Assembly: GCA_964570765.1 (NCBI GenBank)
Contig: CAZMZF010000001.1
Coordinates: forward strand, 47,626 to 111,625
Origin: an uncultured Ignavibacteria bacterium
GTDB lineage: Bacteria; Zixibacteria; MSB-5A5; RBG-16-43-9
DNA: 64,000 bases
Direction of reading: 5' to 3'
Positions 17,953 to 58,894 of the stretch are shown here, one piece after another; positions within the stretch are counted from its first letter, which is position 1; each line of letters starts with the position of its first letter. The notes beneath the pieces were generated by a model. That model ran no database searches. It saw only the letters and a list, made by a program, of their open reading frames with translations, and had not been told where the DNA came from. Position numbers and translations under genes: made by a program.

Positions 17953-18051
17953 AGATCTACTTTTAAAAAAGGTTTAAAGTTAACTGTTCCGTGAAAATTT
18001 TCTTTATAAAAAGTTTAGACTACATTTTAAAAAACCTCCTCACACTCTGGA

Positions 18052-20248: not shown

Positions 20249-20448
20249 GTCTATAAGGGCACGGCGTCCATGCTCCTACAATAAAAAATGGAAGGCTAAA
20301 GCCTTCCGCTATAAAAAAACGTCAGGGTCAAACCCTGACGCTACGAAAATATTGGTAACGCCCGACCATCGTATGGGGCGTTTATTTTTCGTCCGATCCT
20401 GCGGATCCGTTAATGGGACAGAAACGCCGGAAGTTATATTAAAGTATT

Positions 20449-21516: not shown

Positions 21517-21706
21517 GTTAGACGTTAGACGGAAGACGTGAGACGATTTTTATCGTTATCCAATATCTGCCATCCGTTATTTTCTATTTTAATTTCCCCT
21601 CTTCCTTCTTCCATCTTCCTTTGCTAAGGGCAGACACATAAGTCTACCATTTTTTATCTGTCATCCATCATTCGACATTCGTCATTCTTTTTATCTTCCT
21701 TTTCTT

Positions 21707-41949: not shown

Positions 41950-41950
41950 G

Positions 41951-44863: not shown

Positions 44864-45011
44864 ATTGTCTTACTCCTTTCTGTCATTCTGAGGGACTCCG
44901 CTTTTGGTGAGACGACCGAAGAATCTAATTTAGCGGATAGATTCTTCCCCCGCCAAAAGCGGGGTCAGAATGACATTGATTTGCTACAAGCTACTTGCTA
45001 CATGCTTCAAG

Positions 45012-45815
45012 CTATTTTTTCCTCTTCTCTATCCAGTATCCTATATTCCCCAAGATCACCAAAATTATAATCAGAAGATGAGCTATGGATTGGGCATCCA
45101 TACCTCTTGCGCCCATACCAGGTTGACCCAGCAAAATCTCATATTCTGCAGCTCCTTTGAGTCCATTGACCAGTCCCTGGATCTGTCCGGAATTTAAAAA
45201 AGGATAAAAACTGGTTGCCATAACTGCAGTCGTTAAAACAAACAATTTTTTTTCATATCTTGCCACTGCATAATTTATCCAGGAAAAAGGTATATCCCCG
45301 TCAGTAACTGAGATTATAAGAGCTATCTTTTTATAATCTTTTATCTCTTTAGTCAGTTCCAGATCAAAAGTTGAATTACCAGTATAATCCTCAGGAAAGA
45401 CCTGATGGAAATCCTCTCCCAATCCTAAGATGGTAGCAGTAACCTGTGGTCTGAATCCCAAGAAAACATAATCTTTCCCATAGGTTTTATTATGTTTTAA
45501 AGCGTTTTCCTTTAAGACCTTTTCTCCTAAAGCGGTCCCTTCAGCTAAAAGGGAAAGACCTATAGCTTTCAGATTTTTTGAAAAAGAGTGTTGTAAAATT
45601 GCATTGGCTAAAGGCTGGACCTCTGGAAAAGATGAGGCTTCAAAATCAAAGGAGATTAAAACCACTGAGCTGTCTTCTAAATTATTTATTTTCTCAAATA
45701 CATTTTTGACCTCTGGAGTTACCTTATTCGGCAGGCTTAGTTTAAAAATCAGAGGGAAGATTACCGCTACTGCCATCAGGATGAATATCGTTTTTCGGTT
45801 AAAATTTAGTTTCAT
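45012..45815 (-). CDS. Membrane-anchored protein (N- and C-terminal TM helices), unknown function
   Basis: Hydrophobic N- and C-termini. Confidence 0.5.
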   Translation of the reverse strand: MKLNFNRKTIFILMAVAVIFPLIFKLSLPNKVTPEVKNVFEKINNLEDSSVVLISFDFEASSFPEVQPLANAILQHSFSKNLKAIGLSLLAEGTALGEKVLKENALKHNKTYGKDYVFLGFRPQVTATILGLGEDFHQVFPEDYTGNSTFDLELTKEIKDYKKIALIISVTDGDIPFSWINYAVARYEKKLFVLTTAVMATSFYPFLNSGQIQGLVNGLKGAAEYEILLGQPGMGARGMDAQSIAHLLIIILVILGNIGYWIEKRKK

Positions 45816-46101
45816 ATTCTCTTTTGGTGGAACAGATATCCTGTCACTTCTTATTATCAGACAGGAATGTCTGACCTACCACTTTTTTGGACCCACCTTG
45901 GGGGCAAGGTGGGTCTACCGATTTAAGGATAGAATTCACCGAAGGTGGATTCTGTCCCTCCAACCAGTTTCGTCGGGCGTGAAGCCCGACGCTACGAGCA
46001 TTCACTCTTTCACCATCGGATCAGTCCGCTTGAGGTGGACGACGGACACATAACTCCATATTTTTGCTACAAGCTCCTTGCTACGTGCTACCTGCTTAAA
46101 T

Positions 46102-46722
46102 TCATCCTTTACCCAAATAGGTTCTCTCGATTCCAACAATTATCCTTAAAGATGTGGCTATAGAGCCCAGACCGATTCCGATTAAAATCCCTCTTCTGGC
46201 AGCCATACTGGGGATATTCAGTACCCAGGTTGCAGATTGAGGTATAGATGAATGAATCATCTCTCCTATGGGGACTCGGCCTAAGATGACTAAAATCCCA
46301 GCAATCAGAAGGATGGTTGCCTGTATATTTCTTGCCCTGAAACCTCGATAAGCGGCTGAGGCAACAAAAAAAGCTAAAAGTGAAAACATAGTTGACTGCA
46401 TTGGGACCTGGAGATTATCGAAAATCCATAAAAAAGGCGAGCCCTTCTGAATTCCCTTCCAGAAGCCAAAAAATACCATAATAAGAAGTCCGACTATGGC
46501 AACTGAGTTATATCCCCAACCCTTTTGTTTCTTAGATATTTTTTCCAGATGGAGAAGTAAAAAACTTAAAGCGCCGACCAAGAGTGCAAAAACGTAGATT
46601 ATCTGCATCCAGTCTAAAACATTTTGATAACCTTTTAGAAAAAGAGGATGGGGCACAAAAAACTGTGCCAGCATAAATGCCCCAAAACCAAAACATACCC
46701 AGAGAGGTATCTGCCTGCTCAT
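46102..46722 (-). CDS. Integral membrane protein, unknown function
   Basis: Multiple TM helices. Confidence 0.5.
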   Translation of the reverse strand: MSRQIPLWVCFGFGAFMLAQFFVPHPLFLKGYQNVLDWMQIIYVFALLVGALSFLLLHLEKISKKQKGWGYNSVAIVGLLIMVFFGFWKGIQKGSPFLWIFDNLQVPMQSTMFSLLAFFVASAAYRGFRARNIQATILLIAGILVILGRVPIGEMIHSSIPQSATWVLNIPSMAARRGILIGIGLGSIATSLRIIVGIERTYLGKG

Positions 46723-46726
46723 CTCC

Positions 46727-47512
46727 TTATCCTTTTCCTAAAAAATTGATCAAGAAATTATAACCGAGGGTGGATAAAATCCCACCGGCGACTATAAGAA
46801 ATCCTATGATTAATTTCAAAAAGTCCTGCCCTTTAATGCTTCCCAGAACTAAAGGGTCTTTAGTTAAATAGCCACTGGCGGCAAAAAGCTCCTCGCCTAT
46901 CAAAGTGTAGTCGCAGGCAACAATAAAAAAGGAAAGCTGAATAGTAGAATCTGTGCCTGCAATCTGCAAAGCGCCAATGGAGTTTCCGGTCTCAGCTAAG
47001 ATCAGAGATTCAGCTTCAAAGGTCCCTAAGAAAAGATTAGTAGCCGGTCTTTCTCTTAACATAATTCCATCCACTGCGGCTACATATCCAAACTGGCTCT
47101 GGGTTACAAAGTAGATGTTTTCCTTTTTGTATGATTCTGGATGTCCCGTACGGGTAAAACTCTCTTTAACTACTTCCTGGGCAACAGTTGTTACCATCGG
47201 GTCGTAGTTCGGGATTAGAAGAGGAGTGTTATACTCAGCTATTTTCTCCGCTACGCTCCCCAGGATATTCATCGAAGCCATGGTTGCCACCCTTTCCATT
47301 TTTCCCAGACCAGAAGAAAAAAGAATGGGCTTACCCATTTCCGTAGCCCTGCCAACTGCCTCATCTAAAGCCTCAAGCCCGGGAATGGAACGAATCTTCA
47401 GGCTTTTTCCTTTTTTAGCATAAAGGATAAACCCGAAGATAAAAATTAAGGTAACGATTATCCCGATTAAAAGATTTATTTTCTGCGGGTCAAACCAGCT
47501 TTCTTTTTTCAA
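46727..47512 (-). CDS. Membrane protein with a large extracytoplasmic domain, unknown function
   Basis: N-terminal and C-terminal TM helices. Separated by 4 bp from the gene at 46102-46722. Confidence 0.5.
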   Translation of the reverse strand: MKKESWFDPQKINLLIGIIVTLIFIFGFILYAKKGKSLKIRSIPGLEALDEAVGRATEMGKPILFSSGLGKMERVATMASMNILGSVAEKIAEYNTPLLIPNYDPMVTTVAQEVVKESFTRTGHPESYKKENIYFVTQSQFGYVAAVDGIMLRERPATNLFLGTFEAESLILAETGNSIGALQIAGTDSTIQLSFFIVACDYTLIGEELFAASGYLTKDPLVLGSIKGQDFLKLIIGFLIVAGGILSTLGYNFLINFLGKG

Positions 47513-47973
47513 AGCAAAAGCTGAGGAGTTAAAGCTAAATATTATAACAAGAAGAAGAATTAAGTGACGGATTTTCCTCTTCAGGTTAATCCTCCTTGAT
47601 AAGTTTTTAAGTAAAGTAGAAAATAAAATTTCTTTGTCAAGGGAAATTAAAATTTGAAGTAAATCATATAGACCCGCCTTGGGGGCGAGGTGGGTTTACC
47701 GAGTTGACAATTGCTCAGTTTATCAAGTAAAAGCCTGCCCAATGAATTGGGTAACAATATTTATAAATTCATTTTGTCTACCCTACGGGGGCAAGCTCCG
47801 GATCCATTTCTCGGACGAGGAGAGGGGGAAGATCCACTTTTTACTTGACAATTTAATTTGATTATTCTATATATTTTCTGGTTAGAGAAGATAGGGAGCA
47901 AAAAACCGTTTAACATTTTTCCCCGCCTTTGGCGGGATCCCGCTTAAAGCGGGAAAACCAACAGGAGGGTGGT

Positions 47974-50400
47974 ATGCGTTACCGTGTTTTGTTTTTGGTA
48001 GTGGTGGGGCTTCTGGTCTGCAATTTAGTTTATGCAGACGTACCCAGGCTGATTAACTTTCAGGGGAGGCTCACAGATGCATCAGGCAAGTTCGTGGCAG
48101 ATGGTAGCTATTCTGTGACCTTCAGTATTTACTCAGTCCCCTCAAGCGGGAGTGCTTTATGGACTGAGGCGCAATCTGTAACGGTAACCAAGGGGTTGTT
48201 TAATGTCATCCTGGGTTCTGTTACACCGATTCCCAACACCATTTTCGATTCTTATGTTGATACCTACCTGGGAGTACAGGTGGGTGCAGATGTAGAGATG
48301 ACACCTCGCCAGAGACTTACCAGCTTAGGGTATTCCTATTATTCTCTGAATTCAGACAAACTCGACGGTTATCATGCTTCAGATTTCACCAGTCCGGTAT
48401 CTGATTTTGGACGCTCAGGTGTAGCATCTGATTTATATGAGGGAACGACTACTTTGACTGACAAGTATGTAAATGAAGAAGGCCCTGAGATTGTTAGTTG
48501 CACTACCTCTGGCTCAGCCTTTACAGGAAATGCCTCAGGCAGCAACACAGGATCTATGCGAGGAATAACCGGGTATGTATCTAACTCTTCCAGCGGAGAT
48601 TGTTATGGAGTATGGGGAGAAGTGAGTTCTTCAGGCACATCGAGTCAACATTATGCAGTTGTGGGTTTAAGTAGCGGTACTTCTTCTAATAATTTCGCTA
48701 TGGGTCTTTATGGTCAAGCTTCTGGTAATGCCAGTGTCGGTTCCTATGCTGCCTATGGTACTAGTTCAAACTCCGGCTCCGGCAAAGCTTATGGTGGATA
48801 TTTTTCTACTGGTACCTCTGGTACTGGTGAGCATTATGGGGTCTATGCCTACGGTAATGGTAATTCTGATACCACATCCTATGGTGCCTATGGTTATGGT
48901 CGGAACGCTTCCACCGGAGATGTTTATGGCGGATATTTCACCACCTCTTCTTCGGGCACAGGAACCCATTATGGAGTTTATGGAGATGCTTATGGTAGCT
49001 CCTCTTCCGATGTTTATGGTTCTTATAGTATAGCTGAAAATACCTCCAATGGTAACGTTTATGGTGGCTATTTTGTAGCTGATTCCTCAGGCACAGGCGG
49101 CCATATAGGAGTTTGGGCAGAAGGTTATGGAGACTCACCTACAGAGAATGTTTATGGTGTAAGGGGCTATGCTCATAACTCCTCGTCTGCTTATGTCTAT
49201 GGTGGAATTTTTTCTACCTCTTCTTCCGGAACGGGTTATCATTATGGTTTAAGAGCAGAAGGGGTTGGTAACGGTCCTGCGACTTATGGTTCATATAACA
49301 GCGCTACTAACTATTCTGATGATGAGGCTTATGCAGGGTATTTTTATGCCTCCTCCTCAGGCAGTGGAAAGCGTTACGGGGTGTATTCCACCTCTTACAG
49401 CAATTCCGACTCCTCCGCTTACGGTGTTTATGGATATGGCTCAAATTATGTAACAGGTGATGCTTATGGTGGATTTTTTGAGACCTCTACTTCTGGCACA
49501 GGGTATCATTATGGTTTAAGAGCAGAAGGTAATAGTGGCACCGCAGGACCTGCTCGAGGGGTCTATGCAATAGCTGAGAATACCTCCAGTGGTAGTGCCT
49601 ATGCAGGGCAGTTTTATACCTCATCTTCCGGCACAGGATACCATGCTGGTGTTAGTTCATCTTGTTATGGTTCTTATTCTTATATAGATGGTGTTAATAG
49701 TTATGTTTCAAACAGTTCCTCTGGCGACGCTTATGCTGGGTATTTTACCGCCTATTCTAACACTGGAACAGAATACGGAGTCTATGCCTATGCTCCTGCC
49801 ACAGGTTATGCGGGATATTTTTCAGGGAATCATGTAATTACCGGAACCAAGAGCGCGGCAGTGAAGGTGGATAATGGGGAATATCGGTTACTTTACTCTA
49901 TGGAATCACCGGAGAACTGGTTTGAGGATTTTGGTGAAGGGAAATTAGTTAACGGTAAGGCATTGGTGCAGATTGACCCACTCTTTGCTCAATCGGTTAA
50001 TACCTCAGTTAAATATCATGTGTTCTTAACTCCTCAGGATGAGCCTTTGACCTTAGCTGTGGCGAACAGGACTGTAAGCTCTTTTGAGGTGAGAGGTCCA
50101 GCAGGCTCTGATATTTCCTTCTCCTATCGCATCGTAGCCAAGAGGAAAGGTTATGAGGATTTGAGGATGGCTAAGATGCTTGGCTCCACTCCAGAAGAGA
50201 TGCAGGCAGAGCAGTCAAAGCGCCTGGCTGAATCAGAACAGGAAAGAGCACAGATGAAGCTTGAAAGAAAAGAGAGAACAGAAGAAGAGGAGCAACAGTA
50301 TAGACCCAAGCCACCTGAGATAGAGAGCGTGCAGAAGGTAAGAAGAGAAGAGCCAAGACCGGATACAGAGAAGATGAGGGTGGTATCCCAAGAGAGGTAA
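47974..50400 (+). CDS. Secreted Tyr/Gly/Ser-rich repeat protein with a conserved N-terminal domain and a charged C-terminal tail
   Basis: The start is placed at MRYRVLFLVVVG (signal peptide) with GGAGGG before the ATG. There are more than 10 degenerate ~35-aa repeats ...YGVYGYG..S.GD.YGGYF.TSSSGTG.HYG... The E/K/R-rich C-terminus looks coiled-coil-like. Confidence 0.7.
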   Translation: MRYRVLFLVVVGLLVCNLVYADVPRLINFQGRLTDASGKFVADGSYSVTFSIYSVPSSGSALWTEAQSVTVTKGLFNVILGSVTPIPNTIFDSYVDTYLGVQVGADVEMTPRQRLTSLGYSYYSLNSDKLDGYHASDFTSPVSDFGRSGVASDLYEGTTTLTDKYVNEEGPEIVSCTTSGSAFTGNASGSNTGSMRGITGYVSNSSSGDCYGVWGEVSSSGTSSQHYAVVGLSSGTSSNNFAMGLYGQASGNASVGSYAAYGTSSNSGSGKAYGGYFSTGTSGTGEHYGVYAYGNGNSDTTSYGAYGYGRNASTGDVYGGYFTTSSSGTGTHYGVYGDAYGSSSSDVYGSYSIAENTSNGNVYGGYFVADSSGTGGHIGVWAEGYGDSPTENVYGVRGYAHNSSSAYVYGGIFSTSSSGTGYHYGLRAEGVGNGPATYGSYNSATNYSDDEAYAGYFYASSSGSGKRYGVYSTSYSNSDSSAYGVYGYGSNYVTGDAYGGFFETSTSGTGYHYGLRAEGNSGTAGPARGVYAIAENTSSGSAYAGQFYTSSSGTGYHAGVSSSCYGSYSYIDGVNSYVSNSSSGDAYAGYFTAYSNTGTEYGVYAYAPATGYAGYFSGNHVITGTKSAAVKVDNGEYRLLYSMESPENWFEDFGEGKLVNGKALVQIDPLFAQSVNTSVKYHVFLTPQDEPLTLAVANRTVSSFEVRGPAGSDISFSYRIVAKRKGYEDLRMAKMLGSTPEEMQAEQSKRLAESEQERAQMKLERKERTEEEEQQYRPKPPEIESVQKVRREEPRPDTEKMRVVSQER

Positions 50401-50630
50401 GATTTATGTAGGGGCACGGCGCACCGTGCCCCTACGGATGTCATTGCGACCCCGCCACAGGAGGGGGAAGCAATCTGCTGACTATGTGAAGGTTGCTTCG
50501 TCGTCCCCGAAGGGGGCTCCCCGCAATGACAGGTAAAAGAAAAATATTTTGAAATTTTTCTTGCTTTTTGAAAAGTTATCTATATGTTAGTTAATGGTAG
50601 TATAAAAAACCTAAAACTAAGGAGTGGAAG

Positions 50631-51176
50631 ATGTCAAGAACTCTGAAATTTCTACCAGTAGTTTTAGTAATTGTCTTTCTTTCTTTTTCTTTGGCTTTCT
50701 CCATAGAAAAAGAAAAAGTTTTTGAAGAAAGAACAGTAAAGGAGAATTCTATAGATGAGAAAGTCCTGATAGGAAAAGAGGTGATCATACCTAAAGATAC
50801 CACTGCCACTCCCCAGAATTATCATATTCCCTGGAGCAGTTTTAATGGCGGTGGAAAAGATATGGCTTCCACCAATTATAAGACTATGGTCTCTTCAGCG
50901 CAAAGTTTTATCGGAGAGTCTCAGAGTACCAATTATCAGTTAAAAAGCGGATACTGGTATGGTGGTAAGCCTTTTCTATGTGCAGATGTTAATGAAACCG
51001 GGAATGTATCTTTAGGGGATATCGTTTACCTGATCAACTATCTTTTCAAATTTGGTCCTGAGCCAGATCCATTTTATCGTGAAGCAGATACGAATGGAGA
51101 TGGAAAGGTAAGCTTATCTGATATCGTCTGGTTGATCAACTATCTTTTTAAATTTGGACCAGCCCCTGTTTGTTAA
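50631..51176 (+). CDS. Secreted protein with a C-terminal dockerin-like duplicated Ca-binding segment
   Basis: Signal peptide. ADVNETGNVSLGDIVYLINYLFKFGP and ADTNGDGKVSLSDIVWLINYLFKFGP form a tandem pair resembling dockerin type I repeats. Confidence 0.55.
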   Translation: MSRTLKFLPVVLVIVFLSFSLAFSIEKEKVFEERTVKENSIDEKVLIGKEVIIPKDTTATPQNYHIPWSSFNGGGKDMASTNYKTMVSSAQSFIGESQSTNYQLKSGYWYGGKPFLCADVNETGNVSLGDIVYLINYLFKFGPEPDPFYREADTNGDGKVSLSDIVWLINYLFKFGPAPVC

Positions 51177-51217
51177 AGCCGTAATTAAAAGGGTCTTTCA
51201 GTAATAAGTATGTAGAG

Positions 51218-51251
51218 GTCCCTCTGGCAAAAATGCCGGAGGGACTTTTTT
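51218..51251 (+). terminator. Hairpin GTCCCTCTGGC-AAAAAT-GCCGGAGGGAC followed by T6
   Basis: Stem with 1 mismatch and a T-tract, 42 nt after the stop of the dockerin-like gene. Confidence 0.5.
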
Positions 51252-51344
51252 ATATTTAAAAAGAAGTTATAAAGAATAATTTATCCTCCGATAAGATAAA
51301 AAGGGGTTAAAATTTCTTAAATATCCGGCTTGAAGGAGGAAAAG

Positions 51345-52277
51345 ATGGATAAGATAAAAAATTTTTTGGTAAAACACTTAGAGAAAATATTAATTCTGGG
51401 CTTGACCGGTATTATTTTGATTACTAACCATTTTGTTTTTCAGAAGATGGCTTTCCTTAATTTTTATTATCTGCCGGTCTTGGTCTCTGGTTATTTCCTT
51501 GGAAAAAAGTATGCTATCTACACCAGTGTTTTCAGCATAGGGCTGGTGGTTTTCCTGGCGATTTTATACCCGAACTCTTTTTACCATCAATCCACGGATC
51601 TAAGGTTAGCTTTAGATCTGGTGATCTGGGGTGGGTTTCTGTTTTTAGCCGGAGCGGTGGTGGGGACTTTATATGAACAGAAGGAAAATAAAATTCAGGA
51701 GATCAAAAAAGCGTATGTGGGAGTGATTGAGATTTTAACTAAATACTTGGAATCCTCGGACCGATATACCAAAGGCCACTCGCTCAGAGTGGCAGATTAT
51801 GCTTCGGAAATCGCCAAGTCGTTGGAATTATCTAAAAGTGAAGTTGAAAACATCAGAGTAGCAGGTCTTCTGCACGATATAGGAAAAATTGAGATCTCGA
51901 GCGAGCTTATAACCAAAGCTGCCAGTTTGACCACGGAAGAGAAGAAAATAGTTGAAACCCATGTGGAAAAGGGCGTAGAGATATTAAGCTCAGTTGGAAC
52001 GGTCTTAAAAGAGTCTATTCCTATAGTTTTATCCCATCATAAATTCTTCATCGAGAGCAGTGAGGAGGAGAAAAAATTCAATACCCTTCCCTTAGGAGCC
52101 AGGATTTTAGCAGTGGCAGATAGCTTTGATGCGATGGTCACAGATAGGCCTTACCGGGCAGGGAAACCGTTATGGCAGGCGATGGAGGAGTTAGAAAAGG
52201 GAAGCGGGATACAATTTGATCCGCATGTGGTTGAGGCTTTTAAAAGGGTGTTAGCGGATAAAGTGGAAGTAACGTAA
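51345..52277 (+). CDS. Membrane-anchored HD-GYP-family phosphohydrolase with a degenerate GYP motif
   Basis: N-terminal 4-5 TM helices. HD domain motifs (LLHDIGK, SHHKF, VADSFDAMVTDRPYR). The expected HHExxDGxGYP segment reads HHKFFIESSEEEKK, so no GYP is present. The start is chosen at MDKIKN, preceded by AAGGAGG. Confidence 0.7.
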   Translation: MDKIKNFLVKHLEKILILGLTGIILITNHFVFQKMAFLNFYYLPVLVSGYFLGKKYAIYTSVFSIGLVVFLAILYPNSFYHQSTDLRLALDLVIWGGFLFLAGAVVGTLYEQKENKIQEIKKAYVGVIEILTKYLESSDRYTKGHSLRVADYASEIAKSLELSKSEVENIRVAGLLHDIGKIEISSELITKAASLTTEEKKIVETHVEKGVEILSSVGTVLKESIPIVLSHHKFFIESSEEEKKFNTLPLGARILAVADSFDAMVTDRPYRAGKPLWQAMEELEKGSGIQFDPHVVEAFKRVLADKVEVT

Positions 52278-52456
52278 AAAAAGTTCAAGGGTTTAAGAGT
52301 TTAAAGGTTCAAAGGGAAAAAAGAAGTGGAATTGATTCGGGTTTCGTGAACGTAAATATAACCTTACCCTAACCCTATCATTAGGAAGGAGAGGGGATGA
52401 ATTATGTACAGTAGAGGTTCAAAATTTTGAACCCTTACTTTTTTCCAAATTCAGTT

Positions 52457-52639
52457 TAGTTTTTCAGTATTTTGGTAACATTTTTTATAGTTAAGGCTAG
52501 AGGAAAGAGATTATAAATTAGAAGGTAACTTGTTAAAACGTGATTCACATTCAAGAAATTGTTAGTAATTAAAGAGATATCGCGTAGGGGTGGAGCTTGT
52601 TGAGCGAAGCGAAATCCCGCTTCTGCGGGGTCTCCACCC
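52457..52639. repeat. Copy B of the ~183-bp noncoding element
   Basis: About 88% identical to 334-515. Same terminal hairpin GTAGGGGTGGAGC...GGGTCTCCACCC. Confidence 0.6.
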
Positions 52640-52868
52640 TTTACCTTGGGCGGAGTTAAACTCCCTACGGGGAGCTAAACCTGTTAACAAAATTGTGAAG
52701 TAGTGCAACGGGCAGGAGTACAACTCCTGCCCGAGCAGATTACCTCATCAGATATTCACAGAATTGATAAAATAGCCGATAAAAATAATAATACTGAATA
52801 GTATGTTACTGCGGATAATTTATTGTAGAGTAATGTGTTAGCAAATGCTTTTCTTTTAAAAAAAACGA

Positions 52869-52896
52869 TTGACAAATTTAAAAAATTGATTATTAT
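52869..52896 (+). promoter_or_regulatory. Sigma-70-like promoter: TTGACA, 16-bp spacer, TATTAT
   Basis: Consensus -35 and near-consensus -10 about 60 nt upstream of the 52956 start codon, which is itself preceded by AGGAGG. Confidence 0.4.
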
Positions 52897-52955
52897 ATAT
52901 TCAGATTGAGGGGGAAAAGAAAACCTTTTTGCTCCTGCTTCCCAGAGGAGGTTTT

Positions 52956-54221
52956 ATGAGAGTAATGACTAAAATTTTGTTATCTTTTTTAATCCTTTTT
53001 TCCCTGGTCAGTTCTTCACAATCCAGAATAATCTATATTCCCTCCCCCTCTTTAGCCACAATTCAAGGTGGGATAAATGTTGCCTCCAACGGTGACACGG
53101 TTCTGGTCAATGTGGGAACCTATTATGAGAATATAGACTTCAAGGGAAAAAATATCGTGGTGGCAAGCAGGTATCTTATTGAAGGGGATAGCAGTTTAAT
53201 TGAGGCGACCTTCATAGACGCAACTTATTCTTCATCCAAACCTGTGGTAACTTTTAAATCCGGTGAGGACTCCCTTACCCTTTTAACCGGGTTCACCATT
53301 CGTAACAATTCTGATTCCTTAGGGATACTTTGCGACAGCAGTTCCAGCCCCCGGATCATCTATAACCAGATTAAGAATAACCTGGGAGGTCTTTCCTGTT
53401 CCAATTCTTCTAATCCTTTGATAAAAAATAATTTCTTTAAAGATAATGTCAACAATGGGGTGCGGAGTCAGAGCGGTTCTTCTCCTCAGGTGGAGAATAA
53501 TTTCATCTCTGGACACCAAGTGGGGATAAATTGTTCTGCTGGTGCTCCACTTATCAAAAGGAATGTAGTAACTCAGAGCAGTAAGATGGGAATTAACATA
53601 AGTAGTGCGTCTCCACAAGTTTACAATAACACTATAGCAAATATCACCGGGGATGGAGTAGAGATTGTTTCCTCCTCAGATGTGAAATTAATAAATAACA
53701 TCATAGCAAGTTGCAGTCTTGGCGTGGGCATAAAGGTTTCAAGCTCTAATCCTATTATAAAGTATAACGATGTCTGGGGCAATGCTGGTGGAAATTTCTC
53801 CGGAACACCTATAGGTGTTGGGAATATGTCCTGGGGTAAAAATTTAAAAGGGATAGCCTGTGACCAGTTTCTAAATATCAGCCAGGAGCCTAAATTTGTA
53901 AACCCACCTGCTGATTTTTCATTGCAGTGTTCTTCTCCCTGTATAGATGTTGGAGATCCGGGTTTCCCCGTTCCGAGTTCAGGTGGACCCAGGATCGATA
54001 TGGGGGCTTATGAGTACCTTATCTCCACTGGAGATGTTTATGTAGATGGTAAGATCAATGTTTCAGATGTAATCTTCCTGATAAATTATCTTTTCAAAAA
54101 TGGTCCCGCTCCAGATCCCTTATTAAAAGGAGATGTGACTGCAGATAGTTTAGTAAATGTCCAGGATATATTCCATCTGATAAATTATCTTTTCAGAAAC
54201 GGTATGCAGCCCTGTCATTGA
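52956..54221 (+). CDS. Secreted right-handed parallel beta-helix repeat protein with a C-terminal dockerin-like module
   Basis: Signal peptide MRVMTKILLSFLILFS. The start is chosen at MRVMTK rather than the track start at 52929. Repeated ...N.I..N..G....SS.P.I..N... units. C-terminal GDVYVDGKINVSDVIFLINYLFKNGP / GDVTADSLVNVQDIFHLINYLFRNG. Confidence 0.6.
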   Translation: MRVMTKILLSFLILFSLVSSSQSRIIYIPSPSLATIQGGINVASNGDTVLVNVGTYYENIDFKGKNIVVASRYLIEGDSSLIEATFIDATYSSSKPVVTFKSGEDSLTLLTGFTIRNNSDSLGILCDSSSSPRIIYNQIKNNLGGLSCSNSSNPLIKNNFFKDNVNNGVRSQSGSSPQVENNFISGHQVGINCSAGAPLIKRNVVTQSSKMGINISSASPQVYNNTIANITGDGVEIVSSSDVKLINNIIASCSLGVGIKVSSSNPIIKYNDVWGNAGGNFSGTPIGVGNMSWGKNLKGIACDQFLNISQEPKFVNPPADFSLQCSSPCIDVGDPGFPVPSSGGPRIDMGAYEYLISTGDVYVDGKINVSDVIFLINYLFKNGPAPDPLLKGDVTADSLVNVQDIFHLINYLFRNGMQPCH

Positions 54222-54283
54222 CCTATGTGGGAGTGGAGGCTGGAACTCCTTTTACGAAAACCGAGGGAACGGTTTCATTAAGG

Positions 54284-54315
54284 CGAATCCCGAATTTCAG
54301 GGACTCGCTTTTTTG
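54284..54315 (+). terminator. Hairpin GCGAATCCC-GAATTTCA-GGGACTCGC followed by T6
   Basis: Seen in the sequence about 60 nt after the stop of the beta-helix gene. Confidence 0.45.
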
Positions 54316-54545
54316 TTATCAAAAAGCGTTTGTTTTTTCCAGTTGAAAGATTTATAATAAAAAATGAGTATGGAATAAGGAAGATGGAAAATGAAAAATG
54401 GAATAGGTAAAAAGTAGTAAACCGTTAGTGGAGATTTATGTATAGGTATTGACAATTTAGTTTAGAGTGTGTCATGGAAAATAAAAACGTAACGTTATCT
54501 TTACAAAGTTACCAAAATATGATTTAATTATGAAGAGAGTAAGCA

Positions 54546-55025
54546 ATGCGAGTTGAAGATCAAATAAACAATGACAATGTGACCTTGCCCCGACAGAATT
54601 TATTCTCCATCTTAAAATGGGGATTTTTTTTGACCTTAATACTTTTTTTAATAAATTGCGGGCTGAAAAGACCAAAGGATGAGATTGGTCCCCTTAAGGA
54701 GGTGATAAGCAGGTTTGAGAGAGGGGTTATTAATGAAAACAGAATAGTCCTGGATTCGGTCTATAGCAAAAAAGATATAAACAGGGATTCGCTTATCAGC
54801 TCAGTTCTTCAAGAATTTTCTGCCTTGAAATCGAAAGGATTTTATTCCTTTAAGAGGAGGAAGTTTTCGATAATAGAGAATAAAATAATTGCTACAGTGG
54901 AGCTTTTCATAAGCAGAGAGGATCAGAAATCCGCGAGTGGATCCGTAGGAGAGGAGAAGATATTAGAGGTTTTCTTAGAAAAGAAAAGGGGTGAATGGAA
55001 AATAGTTGGACAGGATATAAAATAA
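54546..55025 (+). CDS. Hypothetical lipoprotein
   Basis: TM/signal region ending in LINCG (lipobox-like). Confidence 0.4.
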   Translation: MRVEDQINNDNVTLPRQNLFSILKWGFFLTLILFLINCGLKRPKDEIGPLKEVISRFERGVINENRIVLDSVYSKKDINRDSLISSVLQEFSALKSKGFYSFKRRKFSIIENKIIATVELFISREDQKSASGSVGEEKILEVFLEKKRGEWKIVGQDIK

Positions 55026-55225
55026 AGAACGTTTAATCCGCCAAAGGCGGACAAAAGTTCAAAGGCTCAAAGGAAGAAAAAATAATAATGGATGAAGAAT
55101 GACGAATGACGGAAAAAATATTGTAGGGGCAACCCCCTGCGGTTGCCCATTATGGGAGCAGGCGCTGGAGCCTGCCCCTACATAAAATATAAAATGTCAA
55201 CACTTATGAATTCAGAGGTCAATAG

Positions 55226-56284
55226 ATGTTAGGTTTGAATGAGATTATCGAAAAAGAAGTTACTAAGGCGATTTCTTTCATCCAGGAAGCTTTGAAGGAA
55301 AAACCTGAGTATATCGAAATTGAGCGGGGTGAGGAGGAGAAAGAGCTATTACTTTTAGATAAAAATTTAGACCAACTTTCCTTTGATAAAATCCCGGAGC
55401 TTAGCTGTGAAAACAAAGTCGCGGCAGTGGATGGTGGGTCTGCTACAGTCCTTAAAACCAGGTCTTTTCTGATCGGAGTTTATCGGGCAGGATATGTAAT
55501 TTTTCAGAAAGGGAAAAGAGTTAAGGAGAAGTTTGTTCCTCTGAGGATGGAGATTCTATCTCTGGAAAACAAAGCAGAGAAATATCTGCAAGCGTATCAA
55601 GAACTGGTAGGTGAGGTGCCGAATGAGGTCCCGGAGTTAGATAAGATTTTAGACCGGTTAAGGCTTTTTGCGGAATGGGGGCTGGTCAAGGGATTAATAA
55701 CTGATTTAGAAAAGAGTGATATGATTTTAGTAGATGGCTCATTAAGGGCAAGCATTGTGCCTCCGTATGAGCTTCTTTTAAAAGTAACAGAAGAAGCCAA
55801 ACAGAAAAATATCCATTTAGTTGGAGTGACCAAGACCTCTACTCTATACTGGGGTAAAAAATCTCCTTTGATTCCGATGGTGGTTAAAAGCTCAGAGAAG
55901 TTCTGTCCAGAATCTAAGTGGTTCTGCCGTTTGTCTGATCTGGATTTAGCTTTGAAAAATTCCAACTGGTTCGGGACGATCTATGTATCCAGGCTTAAAG
56001 CCTCTTCTGATTATGCTTTTAGAGTGGATATAAATCGTCTGGATAATACTGAGCCAGCAAAGATTTTCTCCTGGCTGTCCAATCTTTCCTCTGACCCAGC
56101 ATACTTAGGTTATCCCTATCCTTTAGCTGCAGTGCATAATCGGGCCAGGATTTTAGGAAGTGAGATCGAAGATATAAAATATAGATTGCAGAGCAAGGCT
56201 TTAGAAAAAGGGATTTCATTTGCGGACTGGAACCTTTTGTTCCGGGATTTTCATGAGGTGTTGAATGCGGATTTAAATAAATAA
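55226..56284 (+). CDS. NurA-like nuclease domain protein (tentative)
   Basis: KVAAVDGGSATV matches the NurA N-terminal catalytic Asp motif (..DGS). Size about 350 aa. A HerA-like ATPase gene lies 1 kb downstream. Confidence 0.5.
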   Translation: MLGLNEIIEKEVTKAISFIQEALKEKPEYIEIERGEEEKELLLLDKNLDQLSFDKIPELSCENKVAAVDGGSATVLKTRSFLIGVYRAGYVIFQKGKRVKEKFVPLRMEILSLENKAEKYLQAYQELVGEVPNEVPELDKILDRLRLFAEWGLVKGLITDLEKSDMILVDGSLRASIVPPYELLLKVTEEAKQKNIHLVGVTKTSTLYWGKKSPLIPMVVKSSEKFCPESKWFCRLSDLDLALKNSNWFGTIYVSRLKASSDYAFRVDINRLDNTEPAKIFSWLSNLSSDPAYLGYPYPLAAVHNRARILGSEIEDIKYRLQSKALEKGISFADWNLLFRDFHEVLNADLNK

Positions 56285-56460: not shown

Positions 56461-57048
56461 ATGCAACAGAATTCGGAAAAATATCAACGTCGTTCAATCC
56501 GATTAAAGGAATACGATTATTCACAAGCTGGGGCGTATTTTGTAATGATATGCACGCAGAACAATGAATGCGTTTTTGGAGAGGTGATTAATGAAGAGAT
56601 GAGATTGAATAAATATGGGAAAATTGTTAAAGATGAGTGGTTGAGGACAAGGGAGATACGTTCAAATGTGATGTTGGATGAATATATCGTGATGCCAAAT
56701 CATTTTCATGGTATTATACTGATTATTGATGATGTGTTTGTAGGGGCGACCCGCCGGGTCGCCCCTACAGTAAAATCAACCACGTTGAAGTCAAATACCC
56801 TCGGTTCAATTATTGGTCAAATAAAATCCATTGTTACCAAAAATATTCACAAAATGGGATTAAAACATTTTCACTGGCAAAGAAATTATTATGAACATGT
56901 TATTAGGAATGAAGATAAGTTGAACAAAATCAGACAATATATTCAGAACAAACCTCTAAGCTGGCATCTGGATAGAGAAAATCCGGAAAGGGTAGGAATA
57001 AATAGGTTAGAAGATGAGATTTTTAATTTGAAGAAGACAATTAAATAA
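56461..57048 (+). CDS. REP-associated tyrosine transposase (RAYT / IS200-like Y1), second copy with a REP palindrome embedded in the coding sequence
   Basis: HuH motif MPNHFHGIIL. Catalytic Tyr region WQRNYYEHVIRNE...YIQNKP. The palindrome GTAGGGGCGACCCGCCGGGTCGCCCCTAC at 56740-56768 lies in-frame between the two motifs. Confidence 0.75.
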   Translation: MQQNSEKYQRRSIRLKEYDYSQAGAYFVMICTQNNECVFGEVINEEMRLNKYGKIVKDEWLRTREIRSNVMLDEYIVMPNHFHGIILIIDDVFVGATRRVAPTVKSTTLKSNTLGSIIGQIKSIVTKNIHKMGLKHFHWQRNYYEHVIRNEDKLNKIRQYIQNKPLSWHLDRENPERVGINRLEDEIFNLKKTIK

Positions 57049-57328: not shown

Positions 57329-58894
57329 ATGGATTACAAAGGCAGAATAATCGGAAAAAGTATAACCGAGATTTATTTCCGGACTTTTTATGAGGAGGAA
57401 CTTCATTTAGGGGATATCCTGGTGGCACAGGACGAGGAGAAAAATCTTCCTTTTTATTTAAGAGTAGTGGAGGTCAGTTACGGAGTTGAAGCAACTGATC
57501 CGGACTGGGCTTCTCGCACTGCGGGGAATATGATGCTTTTAGACCGGCAGACCGAGTCTTATCAGTTTCAGGAAAAAGAGAGAAGGCTTTTCAAAATTGG
57601 AAAATGTGTCCCCTTAGGTTATATTAAAGATAATCTCTTCAGAAAACCAAAAACTATACCGGAACATTTCTCCAGAGTGCGCACTCCAAATAATGAAGAT
57701 TTTCTTTTTCTGAAAAAATATACGGGTGATATAGACGTTGGTAAACTGCGCTCAGGTGAAGATGTGATTGATTTCAAAATCGGAGTCTCCGGAGAGCTGT
57801 TTCCTTATCATATCGGGATATTCGCTACCACCGGTATGGGGAAAAGTAATTTGATGAAGGTTTTAGCCAGTTCAGTTTTAGAATCGGGCAAATACGGGAT
57901 GCTGATTTTGGACCCGCACGGAGAATATTATGATGGGGGAGGTGATCCGAAACATAAGGGGTTGGTTGATCATCCTTTAGCAAAAGAATGGCTGAGAGTC
58001 TATTCTTCCAGAGATTTAAAAGGTCCTTATAATAAACTCAAGATAAGCTCCAAGGAGATAGAGATCAAGGATGTTCGGCAGATTTACGGGTTCACCCAGG
58101 CACAGGTGGAAGCGCTTTATGCCTTAGCGCATCATTTTGGCAGGGATTGGCTGGATGGAGTAAAGAGAAGTTCTATTTCAGAGCTGGCGATGAGTTTGTC
58201 ATCTGGCGGTGCTTTTTTTGAATCAACGATAGGAGTCATCCAGAGGAGAGCAGAGCAGATTTTGAGACTTCCCTTTGTGCATGGTGACCCTAATGTCTCT
58301 ATTACTGTTAATGTGATTAATGATTTATCCTCAGGTAAAGTGGTTTTGATAGATACTTCCAATATGTCTGAACAGGAGGAGCTTTTGATCTCTGCGGTTC
58401 TGGCACGGGCTGTTTTCTCCAGAAATAAAGAGGCATATCAGGATCCTGCCAAGTTCAAAAAGATCTTACCTACTCTGATCGTGATGGAAGAAGCCCAGAG
58501 AGTTTTATCTCAAAAGGGCGAAGCGGATATAAATATCTTTGCTCAAGTCTCAAGAGAAGGAAGGAAGTTCAAAACCGGGCTTTGTGCCATTACCCAACAG
58601 CCAAAACTAATCGATGAGGAGCTTTTGTCTCAGTTCAATACCCTTTTCATCTTAGGTCTGGCAGATGAACGGGACCGGAATATCCTGAAAAGCTCTGCCA
58701 AGCAGGATATTTCTGATCTGGGAACAGAGATTCAGATGCTTGAAGCAGGCGAAGCTTTGATCACCTCTCCCCAGGCTCCTTTTGCCATCCCGGTTAAGGT
58801 CTATCTTTTTGAAGAATGGCTGAAGGAAAGAAAAGAAAGCTTGAAAGAAAAAAATTCTGTGGATGTAAAGGTGGATGAGGGATTTTTTAAATAG
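57329..58894 (+). CDS. HerA-like ATPase (FtsK/HerA superfamily, DUF87)
   Basis: Walker A GIFATTGMGKSNL, Walker B LIVMEEAQR. About 520 aa. Confidence 0.7.
   Translation: MDYKGRIIGKSITEIYFRTFYEEELHLGDILVAQDEEKNLPFYLRVVEVSYGVEATDPDWASRTAGNMMLLDRQTESYQFQEKERRLFKIGKCVPLGYIKDNLFRKPKTIPEHFSRVRTPNNEDFLFLKKYTGDIDVGKLRSGEDVIDFKIGVSGELFPYHIGIFATTGMGKSNLMKVLASSVLESGKYGMLILDPHGEYYDGGGDPKHKGLVDHPLAKEWLRVYSSRDLKGPYNKLKISSKEIEIKDVRQIYGFTQAQVEALYALAHHFGRDWLDGVKRSSISELAMSLSSGGAFFESTIGVIQRRAEQILRLPFVHGDPNVSITVNVINDLSSGKVVLIDTSNMSEQEELLISAVLARAVFSRNKEAYQDPAKFKKILPTLIVMEEAQRVLSQKGEADINIFAQVSREGRKFKTGLCAITQQPKLIDEELLSQFNTLFILGLADERDRNILKSSAKQDISDLGTEIQMLEAGEALITSPQAPFAIPVKVYLFEEWLKERKESLKEKNSVDVKVDEGFFK

What the first reader, a model, noticed from the sequence alone, without database searches (positions are those of the whole stretch)
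50631..54221. Dockerin-like duplicated Ca-binding modules on two secreted proteins in a non-cellulolytic metabolic context
Both 50631-51176 and 52956-54221 end in a tandem pair of D.N.DG.V...D...LINYLFK.GP segments. These resemble dockerin type I F-hand repeats. The second protein is a right-handed beta-helix protein, a fold typical of polysaccharide lyases, hydrolases and adhesins. This points to a cohesin-dockerin-type surface display system. No cohesin is evident in the window, and the large repeat protein could be a scaffold.
Basis: partly seen in the sequence, partly recalled or inferred. Interest (0 to 1): 0.5.

Follow-up and report, generated by a model that had tools for sequence, protein, structure and literature searches.

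The report
Dockerin-tagged surface proteins in a Zixibacteria genome
Two secreted proteins of an uncultured Zixibacteria bacterium really do end in dockerin modules, the calcium-dependent "plugs" known from cellulosomes, and relatives encode matching cohesin "sockets" with cell-surface anchoring tails, so this is a non-cellulolytic example of a known display system, not a new kind of system.

Summary
ORFs 50631-51176 (B, 181 aa) and 52956-54221 (D) each end in a duplicated Ca-loop + helix module. Both score above Pfam's Dockerin_1 cut-off (41.3 and 33.7 bits against 22.9). A confident model of B's module superposes only on solved dockerins. D is a right-handed beta-helix protein.

The window is from Zixibacteria (83.6% nt identity to chromosome OY970208.1). 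In this phylum the dockerin subtype (…LINYLFKGGP.P.C-end) is a mass-used C-terminal tag: more than 531 copies in species-representative genomes, mostly on beta-propellers, beta-helices and many peptidases, with no glycoside hydrolase among the commonest families.

No cohesin lies in the window. A Zixibacteria MAG with the orthologous locus does encode multi-cohesin proteins ending in type IX secretion (T9SS) sorting domains. Docking onto T9SS-anchored cohesins is therefore the likeliest mechanism, though it is inferred and not shown for this genome.

The 823-aa repeat protein is not a scaffoldin. It is a fibre-like protein co-transcribed with B, and the pair "fibre gene + small module-dockerin gene" recurs in about five paralogous groups. 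B may be a fibre-to-cohesin adaptor.

The closest precedent is the Cloacimonadota "cellulosome-like" system. Verdict: new member of a known kind.

The parts
47929..50400 (+). Protein A, 823 aa (likely start ATG 47974, MRYRVLF…). A secreted fibre-like protein with a 'VPRLINFQGRLT…' N-terminal domain, 7-8 copies of a 45-aa G/S/Y-rich repeat, a C-terminal domain and a charged tail. It is not a scaffoldin. It is the probable partner of B.
   Evidence: NCBIfam Bdello_MAT_N aa 29-100, E 1.8e-10, 40.8 bits (cut-off 60). No Pfam hit. Repeat spacing 44-46 aa. No PDB sequence relative. Orthologues 66-75% identical directly upstream of B orthologues.
50631..51176 (+). Protein B, 181 aa: signal-peptide-like N-terminus (aa 1-25), variable charged linker, conserved ~58-aa beta module, C-terminal dockerin.
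   Evidence: Thirty full-length homologue clusters at 42-91% identity (29 of them 57-91%), labelled Zixibacteria where a source names them.
50802..50975 (+). B middle module (aa 58-115): PQNYHIPW…GGG…STNYK…AQ…G.SQSTNYQLK.GYWYGG. Proposed fibre-binding part.
   Evidence: Strongly conserved. Weak match to NCBIfam PamT in all 23 family members (best E 1.4e-7, 31 bits, cut-off 240). Homologous to the module of paralogous fibre-adjacent small dockerin proteins (hhalign 92%, E 5e-7).
50979..51173 (+). B dockerin (aa 117-181): segment 1 loop DVNETGNVSLGD + helix IVYLINYLFKFG; segment 2 loop DTNGDGKVSLSD + helix IVWLINYLFKFG. Flanked by Cys117 and the C-terminal Cys181.
   Evidence: Pfam Dockerin_1 41.3 bits. 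AF2 model pLDDT 88. Foldseek top 33 hits are all dockerins, TM 0.72-0.84. Cys117 nearly invariant and Cys181 invariant in the family.
51214..51249 (+). Terminator-like hairpin (16-bp stem, 8 G-C pairs, T-run) ending the A-B transcription unit.
   Evidence: No terminator-like site lies between A and B.
51330..52277 (+). Protein C, a membrane-anchored HD_5/HD-GYP-type domain protein (no GYP motif evident by eye). Conserved neighbour; possible regulator; link to the dockerin proteins not shown.
   Evidence: Pfam HD_5 106.9 bits. 81-94% identical in syntenic loci.
52869..52896 (+). Sigma-70-like promoter match (TTGACA-16-TATTAT, 11 of 12) upstream of D.
   Evidence: This is a consensus match only; the number of such sites in the region equals the shuffle expectation.
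52956..54221 (+). Protein D, 421 aa from ATG 52956 (ORF opens at TTG 52929): signal-peptide-like N-terminus, right-handed parallel beta-helix, C-terminal dockerin.
   Evidence: Pfam Beta_helix 71.8 bits, NosD 43.6, DUF1565 26.0, Dockerin_1 33.7. Orthologues 52-71% identical in synteny.
54030..54218 (+). D dockerin (aa 368-430 of the 430-aa ORF): loops DVYVDGKINVSD and DVTADSLVNVQD, helices VIFLINYLFKNG and IFHLINYLFRNG, end …MQPCH. Position 3 of both loops is non-canonical (Y, T).
   Evidence: The module is conserved in orthologues (…LINYLFRNGMPPCH), several with a canonical first loop (DVDSNGKLDVSD).
54306..54328 (+). Terminator-like hairpin after D.

Best explanation
B and D are Sec-exported proteins of a Zixibacteria bacterium. 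Each carries a C-terminal type-I-like dockerin, a duplicated Ca2+-binding loop-helix module. In this phylum the same dockerin subtype tags a large set of extracytoplasmic proteins: beta-propellers, beta-helices and many peptidases. Its most likely role is to plug these proteins non-covalently and Ca2+-dependently into cohesin modules. Those cohesins sit on scaffold proteins that end in a T9SS type A sorting domain and are therefore exported and fixed to the outer surface. The result would be a cellulosome-like display used for proteolysis and adhesion, not cellulose breakdown. D is a beta-helix cargo whose substrate is unknown; it could be a polysaccharide-active enzyme or an adhesin. B is probably an adaptor, not an enzyme. 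Its only non-dockerin part is a ~58-aa beta module, and it is co-transcribed with the fibre-like protein A, so it may tether A to a cohesin. Shown: dockerin identity and fold, beta-helix, phylum, spread and cargo of the tag, cohesin + T9SS-tail proteins in relatives, and the A-B gene pairing. Inferred: actual cohesin binding, surface location, a cohesin in this particular genome, and the B-A contact.
For: Dockerin identity: Pfam above cut-off for both proteins. The nearest PDB sequences are cellulosomal type I dockerins. The model has pLDDT 88 and superposes on 33 solved dockerins (TM 0.72-0.84, rmsd 1.7-2.0 A), while EF-hand proteins reach TM ~0.25. Ca ligands are conserved across 143 dockerin ORFs: D1 97/91%, N3 92/82%, D5 88/92%, D12 100% for loops 1/2. 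Phylum: homologues are named Zixibacteria, and the window shares 83.6% nt identity over 16.4 kb with chromosome OY970208.1. Spread: more than 531 matches in species-representative genomes, the best 80 nearly all Zixibacteria, 14 of the 77 loci from OY970208.1 alone. At least 21 dockerin ORFs lie in ~280 kb of that genome. 161 of 168 dockerins lie within 12 aa of the stop codon. Cargo: 136 of 145 ORFs match Dockerin_1. Matches in the two batches: SBBP 22+2, FG-GAP 11+5, Peptidase_C25 3+6, C1 2+4, S8 4+1, M14 3, M1 3, Beta_helix 6+1. No GH family appears among the 25 most frequent in either batch. Cohesins: L061 in Zixiibacteriota MAG JAUYBY01 has two adjacent genes with Pfam Cohesin 44.5 and 68.4 bits (cut-off 24.1) and TIGR04183 39.6 and 36.9 bits (cut-off 23). 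L048 has Cohesin 68.5, Dockerin_1 36.0 and TIGR04183 36.8. The same MAG holds the orthologous locus L016: A 66%, B module 79%, C 85%, D 68%, NurA 83%. Small cohesin+dockerin and cohesin+T9SS-tail proteins exist in metagenomes. Paralogues of D's beta-helix carry a T9SS tail in place of the dockerin (L057 in OY970208.1, L041), so the two modules are alternative C-terminal surface-targeting ends. Adaptor idea: all 12 distinct module+dockerin ORFs lie directly downstream of a fibre-N-domain ORF, against 2 of 147 other dockerin ORFs (Fisher p 3e-14). A terminator follows B and none follows A.
Against: No cohesin is present in the 64-kb window or in the ~280 kb sampled from the closest complete genome. 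The rest of either genome could not be read. The cohesin-bearing relative is a MAG, and the cohesin and the orthologous locus are on different contigs, so mis-binning is possible. Dockerins greatly outnumber cohesins in the sampled loci, although these loci were selected for dockerins. D's loops have Y and T at ligand position 3. Dockerin proteins lack a T9SS tail, so how they would cross an outer membrane is unexplained. The fibre-adaptor statistic used HMMs seeded from the same loci, and orthologous loci are not independent (about 5 independent groups). The full-length B model was unusable (pLDDT 46).
Confidence: 0.6

Rival explanations
1. Orphan dockerins. In this organism the dockerin modules work without any cohesin, for example as Ca2+-dependent stabilising ends or as binders of another envelope component (polysaccharide, S-layer, other proteins), as proposed for many non-cellulosomal dockerins.
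For: No cohesin in the window or in the sampled part of the closest genome. About 159 dockerin ORFs against about 4 cohesin ORFs in the named-genome loci. A pattern scan of species-representative genomes with the P0054-type cohesin found nothing. Non-cellulosomal dockerins without an obvious partner are a known phenomenon (Peer et al. 2009, PMC3035643, cited).
Against: Pfam-significant cohesins do occur in Zixibacteria loci, one of them in a MAG holding the orthologous locus. They also occur fused to this same dockerin subtype. The helix face …LINYLFKGGP… is kept nearly constant over more than 100 unrelated cargos, which fits one shared partner. The sampling was biased towards dockerins, and only about 10% of the closest genome was seen.
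Confidence: 0.2
2. Piggyback export. The dockerin is in effect a secretion tag. Dockerin proteins bind cohesin carriers in the periplasm and are carried through the T9SS translocon together with the carrier's sorting domain, and are not docked after independent export.
For: Dockerin proteins have signal peptides but no T9SS tail, while the cohesin partners do have one. Minimal proteins made only of signal peptide + one cohesin + T9SS tail exist (P0071, P0073). The same beta-helix family uses either a dockerin or a T9SS tail. The window encodes a LolA/LolB-like lipoprotein (DUF4292), which hints at an outer membrane to be crossed.
Against: No direct evidence. To my knowledge, co-transport of non-covalent complexes by T9SS has not been established. 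Other outer-membrane routes were not examined. T9SS machinery genes were not looked for.
Confidence: 0.1
3. The large repeat protein A is the scaffoldin to which B and D dock.
For: A is large, repetitive, secreted and adjacent. A-B adjacency is conserved.
Against: The repeats are 45 aa long and G/S/Y-rich, not ~140-aa cohesin modules. There is no Pfam hit at E<=1 and no hit to the cohesin HMM. The N-terminal domain is of the trimeric-fibre type. Paralogous fibres next to B-like genes have quite different bodies and share only the N-domain.
Confidence: 0.03
4. The C-termini are ordinary EF-hand Ca2+-sensor pairs, not dockerins.
For: Weak sub-threshold EF-hand Pfam matches in B (EF-hand_7 20.6 bits against 30) and weak PDB sequence matches to calmodulin-like proteins.
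Against: All EF-hand models are below cut-off while Dockerin_1 is above it. The model superposes on dockerins (TM ~0.8) and not on EF-hand proteins (TM ~0.25). The proteins are secreted and the module is always at the C-terminus.
Confidence: 0.02

Closest known systems
Type I dockerins of clostridial cellulosomes (Pfam PF00404; e.g. PDB 4dh2, 4fl4, 1ohz, 2ccl)
   Same: Duplicated ~22-residue segments, each a 12-residue Ca loop (D-x-N-x-D…D) followed by a helix. C-terminal position on secreted proteins. Predicted fold superposes at TM 0.72-0.84. The near-identical segments in B are compatible with a dual binding mode (inference).
   Different: Host is a Zixibacteria bacterium, presumably diderm, not a Firmicute. 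Cargo is not cellulases. The helix face is a distinct, very uniform …(D)VVYLINYLFKGGP.P… motif. 93% of modules carry a Cys in the last 10 residues, often with a second Cys in loop 2 or before loop 1. From memory, this is not a feature of clostridial dockerins. Cohesin binding is untested.
Cellulosome-like system inferred in Cloacimonadota 'Ca. Stygibacter' (PMC8542988)
   Same: Candidate phylum. Signal-peptide proteins, including S8 and C25 peptidases, carry C-terminal dockerins. The scaffoldin-like cohesin protein ends in a T9SS C-terminal domain for surface attachment. Polypeptide degradation is proposed. The evidence is entirely genomic.
   Different: Different phylum. The Zixibacteria scaffolds seen here are small (563-756 aa, 1-3 cohesins, Big_9 domain) with no CBM detected, against a 3,755-aa scaffoldin with CBM2/3. 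No GH cargo is among the commonest families here. The fibre + small-adaptor gene pairs are not described there.
Non-cellulosomal cohesin and dockerin modules across the three domains of life (Peer et al. 2009, PMC3035643)
   Same: Dockerins on proteins unrelated to plant cell-wall degradation, in non-cellulolytic organisms, often far outnumbering cohesins.
   Different: I did not read that survey here; it is cited through. No paper in the searchable library mentions Zixibacteria together with dockerin or T9SS.
T9SS type A C-terminal sorting domain cargo (TIGR04183 / PF18962), e.g. gingipains
   Same: A C-terminal module directs many secreted proteases, beta-propellers and beta-helices to the cell surface. 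C25 gingipain-like peptidases are prominent cargo. Paralogues of D carry this tail.
   Different: B and D have no such tail: the only modules found at their C-terminal ends are dockerins, and the local CTD search listed no window ORF. The dockerin would give indirect, non-covalent attachment through a cohesin.
Bdellovibrio mosaic adhesive trimer (MAT) fibre proteins (NCBIfam NF053851) - relevant to protein A
   Same: A and all fibre partners of B-like genes match the MAT N-terminal domain model (E 1.8e-10 to 5e-13).
   Different: Scores of 29-49 bits are below the model's cut-off of 60. The bodies are unrelated. A neighbouring dockerin adaptor is not a feature I know of in MAT proteins.
CPR Pam pilus tip protein PamT (NCBIfam NF058579; bioRxiv 10.64898/2026.03.03.709456)
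   Same: B's middle module weakly matches the N-terminal third of the PamT model in all 23 family members. Pam operons co-localise with a tail-fibre-like gene.
   Different: 31 bits against a cut-off of 240. The paralogous modules do not match PamT. B is far shorter. PamT's own role is only predicted. No Pam pilins or chaperones were noticed in the window.

Membership tests
Dockerin type I (Pfam PF00404) | Profile score at or above the curated gathering score | tested here: met
   B 41.3 bits and D 33.7 bits against 22.9.
Dockerin type I (Pfam PF00404) | Tandem duplication of a ~22-residue segment, each a 12-residue Ca-binding loop followed by a helix | tested here: met
   Two segments per protein, 20/26 (B) and 14/26 (D) identical. 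Helices at model residues 21-32 and 55-66.
Dockerin type I (Pfam PF00404) | Ca-ligand residues at loop positions 1, 3, 5, 9, 12 (D/N/S/T) | tested here: inconclusive
   B: D-N-T-S-D and D-N-D-S-D, acceptable. D: D-Y-D-N-D and D-T-D-N-D, with position 3 non-canonical in loop 1. Orthologues of D have canonical first loops. Ca binding was not measured.
Dockerin type I (Pfam PF00404) | Dockerin three-dimensional fold | tested here: met
   B aa 108-181: pLDDT 88. The top 33 Foldseek PDB hits are dockerins, TM 0.72-0.84. D was not modelled.
Dockerin type I (Pfam PF00404) | Ca2+-dependent binding to a cohesin | not testable with these tools
   Needs biochemistry or multimer modelling.
Cohesin-dockerin display system | A cohesin-bearing protein encoded in the same genome | tested here: inconclusive
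   None in the 64-kb window. Present in a related MAG that carries the orthologous locus (L061 and L016, JAUYBY01). The rest of this genome is unavailable.
Cohesin-dockerin display system | Scaffold protein has a cell-surface anchoring module | tested here: met
   In relatives: TIGR04183 T9SS sorting domain 36.8-39.6 bits (cut-off 23) on the cohesin proteins of L061 and L048, and on P0071, P0073, P0074, P0076.
Cellulosome (plant cell-wall degrading complex) | Dockerins carried mainly by glycoside hydrolases and other CAZymes; scaffoldin with a cellulose-binding CBM | tested here: not met
   No GH family among the 25 most frequent Pfam families in either batch of the 145 dockerin ORFs; peptidases and beta-propellers dominate. 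No CBM was reported on the cohesin proteins. Rarer families were not listed by the tool.
EF-hand Ca2+-binding pair | Profile above cut-off and EF-hand fold | tested here: not met
   All EF-hand Pfam models are below cut-off. TM ~0.25 to EF-hand structures.
T9SS type A sorting-domain cargo | C-terminal Por_Secre_tail domain | tested here: not met
   No such match in B or D. The local CTD HMM search included the window, and no window ORF appears in its per-source tally.
Right-handed parallel beta-helix (Pfam PF13229) - protein D | Profile score above gathering score | tested here: met
   71.8 bits against 25.9. TIGR03804 repeat 26.2 against 19.45.
CPR pilus protein PamT (NF058579) - B middle module | Score at or above the equivalog cut-off (240 bits) | tested here: not met
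   31.2 bits. Paralogous modules give no match.
Scaffoldin - protein A | One or more cohesin modules | tested here: not met
   No Pfam hit. No hit to the local cohesin HMM. 45-aa repeats.

The most novel reading that the evidence does not exclude
B-type proteins are a previously undescribed class of dockerin adaptors. Each is a ~58-residue beta module that grips the N-terminal base of a trimeric fibre adhesin encoded just upstream, fused to a dockerin that plugs the fibre into T9SS-anchored cohesins. Zixibacteria could then mount interchangeable fibres, and proteases, non-covalently on one surface scaffold, possibly assembling the complexes in the periplasm and exporting them together through the T9SS.
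Probability: 0.3. Interest if true: 0.65.

Novelty: new member of a known kind. Interest (0 to 1): 0.4.

Why it matters
It extends the cohesin-dockerin principle to another uncultured phylum (Zixibacteria) and to a protease- and adhesin-rich cargo set that fits the amino-acid-fermenting metabolism encoded in the window. It adds a second example, after Cloacimonadota, of cohesin scaffolds ending in T9SS sorting domains. This suggests that such diderm candidate phyla combine covalent (T9SS) and non-covalent (dockerin) surface attachment. The recurrent fibre + mini-adaptor gene pair gives a concrete, testable case of a dockerin used to mount a structural fibre instead of an enzyme. The very uniform, Cys-bearing dockerin subtype may also be useful as an orthogonal cohesin-dockerin pair for protein engineering. 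None of this overturns current understanding.

Tried and rejected
- Full-length AF2 model of B from 23 homologues: mean pLDDT 46, unusable, so no fold search was run on it.
- Word-indexed homologue searches with the cohesin module, alone and as a 19-sequence profile, found only 3 and 6 close proteins, none with an organism name.
- Cluster look-up of ten cohesin proteins gave no taxonomy.
- The cohesin alignment A2 was too diverse for the genome pattern scan. The narrower A3 pattern (GYYE[FY]xxGK[VAM]) found no relative in species-representative genomes. This is a narrow test, not evidence of absence.
- Contexts of the small cohesin-dockerin proteins (L008-L014) were too short to place taxonomically. 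The only link is that one comes from the same metagenome as a B homologue (ERZ27247683).
- PamT membership was rejected: the score is far below cut-off and the paralogues do not match.
- EF-hand reading rejected.
- Scaffoldin role for A rejected.
- No Rfam family in 47000-55500.
- No PDB sequence relative of A.
- Model coordinates are not exposed, so the Cys117-Cys181 distance could not be measured. The disulfide clasp remains an inference from conservation and from the N- and C-terminal strands pairing in the model.
- The first B-versus-D segment identity counts were off by one residue in register and are not used.

Full report
**Observation.** B runs 50631-51176 (+) and is 181 aa. D opens at TTG 52929, with the likely start at ATG 52956, ends at 54221 and is 421-430 aa. 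A six-frame scan finds the "…LINYLF…" helix preceded by a D.N.DG-type loop exactly four times, twice at the end of each ORF. Pfam's Dockerin_1 model scores 41.3 bits (B, aa 119-172) and 33.7 bits (D, aa 368-421) against a gathering score of 22.9. Every EF-hand model stays below its cut-off. The nearest solved sequences are cellulosomal type I dockerins. A full-length model of B was useless (pLDDT 46). A dockerin-only model built on 42 sequences was confident (pLDDT 88, pTM 0.76). Its 33 best PDB matches are all dockerins taken from cohesin-dockerin complexes (TM 0.72-0.84, rmsd 1.7-2.0 A), whereas EF-hand proteins reach only TM ~0.25. D also matches the right-handed beta-helix family (71.8 bits). 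The observation and the dockerin and beta-helix labels are therefore confirmed.

**Organism and setting.** Full-length homologues of B form 30 clusters at 42-91% identity (29 of them 57-91%), and those with names are labelled Zixibacteria. The window aligns at 83.6% nucleotide identity over 16.4 kb with the complete chromosome OY970208.1 of an uncultured Zixibacteria bacterium. That makes it a related but distinct species. The rest of the window encodes acyl-CoA carboxyltransferases, methylmalonyl-CoA mutase, Leu-dehydrogenase-like enzymes, butyrate kinases, acyl-CoA dehydrogenases and similar proteins (recognised by eye). The "non-cellulolytic" description is fair. The order A - B - HD-domain protein - D - small lipoprotein - NurA … HerA is kept in relatives down to ~60% identity.

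**The dockerin is a mass-used tag in this phylum.** The best 80 fall in 77 loci. Nearly all are labelled Zixibacteria, and a few are labelled Ignavibacteria, Terriglobales or Woesearchaeota; I did not verify those labels. Fourteen of the loci are from OY970208.1 alone. These loci hold 145 distinct dockerin ORFs, and 161 of 168 dockerins, counting all loci, lie within 12 residues of the stop codon. Across 143 full-length modules the Ca ligands are strongly conserved: D1 97/91%, N3 92/82%, D5 88/92% and D12 100% for loops 1 and 2. A Cys occurs in the last ten residues in 93% of them. Pfam scans of all 145 show Dockerin_1 in 136. The cargo is dominated by beta-propellers (SBBP, FG-GAP, PD40), beta-helices and peptidases (C25, C1, S8, M14, M1, M28, InhA-like). 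No glycoside hydrolase family appears among the 25 most frequent in either batch. A protease-rich displayed set fits an amino-acid fermenter.

**Cohesins.** Nothing in the window resembles a cohesin. Two small hits from the B search (P0049, P0054; 224 aa) combine a Pfam-significant Cohesin with this same dockerin subtype. An exhaustive HMMER search with that cohesin found 120 clusters. The closest are small proteins made of a signal peptide and one cohesin, followed by a dockerin, by a T9SS type A sorting domain, or by both. The T9SS tail was confirmed with TIGR04183 above cut-off. I then screened the 77 named loci with local HMMs. L061, in Zixiibacteriota MAG JAUYBY01, has two adjacent genes: a 563-aa protein with Cohesin 44.5 bits, Big_9 and TIGR04183 39.6 bits, and a 750-aa protein with three cohesin stretches at 68.4 bits, a weak internal dockerin and TIGR04183 36.9 bits. 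L048 encodes a 756-aa protein with Cohesin 68.5, Dockerin_1 36.0 and TIGR04183 36.8. The same MAG JAUYBY01 also contains the orthologous locus L016, with A 66%, B module 79%, HD protein 85%, D 68% and NurA 83% identity. So a fairly close relative has both the window's dockerin proteins and cohesin scaffolds with a surface-anchoring tail. For the window's own genome this remains untested: only ~280 kb of its closest complete relative was visible, and it contained six T9SS-tailed ORFs but no cohesin.

**Protein A is a fibre and B looks like its adaptor.** A has 7-8 copies of a 45-residue G/S/Y-rich repeat, no Pfam hit and no cohesin signal. Its N-terminal domain resembles that of Bdellovibrio mosaic adhesive trimer fibres, though below the model's cut-off. 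It is not a scaffoldin. A strong terminator-like hairpin follows B (51214-51249) and none separates A from B, while D has its own promoter-like and terminator-like sites. Looking across loci, ORFs with A's N-domain but quite different bodies repeatedly sit just upstream of small proteins (~200 aa) built like B: signal peptide, variable linker, a ~58-residue module (…NF.L….GGQ…STNFKLY.GF…) and a dockerin. All 12 distinct module+dockerin ORFs have a fibre-N-domain ORF directly upstream; the one apparent exception is a truncated contig whose missing part the window supplies. Only 2 of 147 other dockerin ORFs have one (Fisher p 3e-14). Two caveats apply. The HMMs were seeded from these loci, and the cases collapse into about five independent paralogous groups. 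Non-circular tests still support homology of B's module with the paralogues' module: hhalign gives 92% probability with E 5e-7, and reciprocal family-only HMMs reach 1.5e-8 and ~1e-7. B's module also weakly matches the NCBIfam model for PamT, the predicted tip subunit of a CPR pilus whose operon co-localises with a tail-fibre-like gene. That score is 31 bits against a cut-off of 240 and the paralogues do not match, so I treat it only as a hint. The inference is that B tethers fibre A to a cohesin.

**Protein D.** The beta-helix and the dockerin are conserved in orthologues. In the window and in OY970208.1 the first loop has Tyr at ligand position 3, whereas other orthologues are canonical, so Ca binding at that site is uncertain. 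Two paralogues of the same beta-helix family (L057 in OY970208.1, and L041) end in a T9SS sorting domain instead of a dockerin, with TIGR04183 at 29.1 and 39.5 bits. That swap is good circumstantial evidence that both modules serve the same purpose, delivery to the cell surface. D's substrate or ligand is unknown.

**Mechanism and rivals.** The best-supported reading (about 0.6) has four steps: Sec export, folding with Ca2+, docking onto cohesins of T9SS-anchored scaffolds, and display of proteases, propellers, beta-helices and (through B-type adaptors) fibres. The conserved Cys117/Cys181 pair in B's family and the paired N- and C-terminal strands in the model suggest a disulfide clasp, which was not measured. 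The main rival (about 0.2) is that the dockerins are orphans in this organism. A non-exclusive, more novel variant (about 0.1) is that cohesin-dockerin pairing happens in the periplasm and lets tail-less proteins ride through the T9SS with a cohesin carrier. This would explain how dockerin proteins cross an outer membrane, a step the simple model leaves open. The EF-hand and A-as-scaffold readings are rejected.

**Comparison and novelty.** The closest described system is the cellulosome-like complex inferred in Cloacimonadota "Ca. Stygibacter". It has dockerin-tagged S8 and C25 peptidases and glycosidases, plus a cohesin scaffoldin with a T9SS C-terminal domain (PMC8542988). Non-cellulosomal dockerins and protease cargo are also known more generally (PMC6487960; Peer et al. 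2009 as cited there). No searchable paper links Zixibacteria with dockerins or T9SS. The finding is therefore a new member of a known kind. The fibre + mini-adaptor pairing and the Cys-bearing, highly uniform dockerin subtype are the parts that look new and worth a follow-up.

Noticed in passing
window 47929-51176; L015, L016, L022, L026, L031, L033, L056, L072, L074: Recurrent gene pair: a fibre-like gene with a 'VPxLINYQGKLT' N-domain is immediately followed by a ~200-aa protein made of signal peptide, small beta module and dockerin. This holds for 12 of 12 such proteins against 2 of 147 other dockerin ORFs, in about five paralogous groups.
   Followed up: yes
L057:11907-13394 (OY970208.1) and L041:4220-5977: Paralogues of D's beta-helix (38% and 35% identity) end in a T9SS type A sorting domain instead of a dockerin, so the two C-terminal modules are interchangeable on one cargo family.
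   Followed up: partly
P0049, P0054, P0066, P0068 (L008-L014); L013:986-6246: Small 224-227-aa proteins consist of signal peptide, one cohesin and one dockerin. They could act as adaptors or self-polymerise. In L013/L014 the gene sits 5 bp after a 1,526-aa dockerin protein.
   Followed up: partly
window 51330-52277: Membrane-anchored HD_5 (HD-GYP-type) protein between B and D. It is among the most conserved genes of the locus (81-94% identity). By eye it keeps the HD motif but shows no GYP motif. It may be a c-di-GMP-related regulator of surface structures.
   Followed up: no
window 44267-47512 (minus strand): Four membrane-protein genes lie upstream of A on the opposite strand. One is a strong DUF6754 match (366 bits), one has only weak sub-threshold matches, and two have no Pfam family. 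Function unknown.
   Followed up: no
window 55226-56284, 56461-57048, 57329-58894: A NurA gene and a 521-aa gene at the position where relatives encode a DUF87 (HerA-type) protein are separated here by a 195-aa ORF. By eye this ORF looks like an IS200/REP-associated tyrosine-transposase-like protein. A similar 159-aa ORF lies at 9413-9892. Relatives have other small genes between NurA and HerA.
   Followed up: no
window 40939-44087 (minus strand): A cluster contains a PAPS-reductase-domain protein (Pfam 84.8 bits) next to ORFs that by eye look ParB-like. It may be a DNA-modification or defence island.
   Followed up: no
window 9979-12250 (+) and 15751-22771 (-): By eye there are two copies each of Leu-dehydrogenase-like, butyrate-kinase-like and phosphate-butyryltransferase-like genes, suggesting duplicated branched-chain amino-acid fermentation modules. 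Not checked with profiles.
   Followed up: no
L085:5960-8236 and other loci: Gingipain-like C25 peptidases, classic T9SS-tail cargo in Bacteroidota, carry dockerins in Zixibacteria (9 of 145 dockerin ORFs).
   Followed up: partly
L017, L019, L034 and others: Several loci with this dockerin subtype come from MAGs labelled Ignavibacteria, Terriglobales or Woesearchaeota. One 'Ignavibacteria' MAG (CAZEDM01) has a NurA 81% identical to the window's. Mislabelling, mis-binning or real spread beyond Zixibacteria was not resolved.
   Followed up: no
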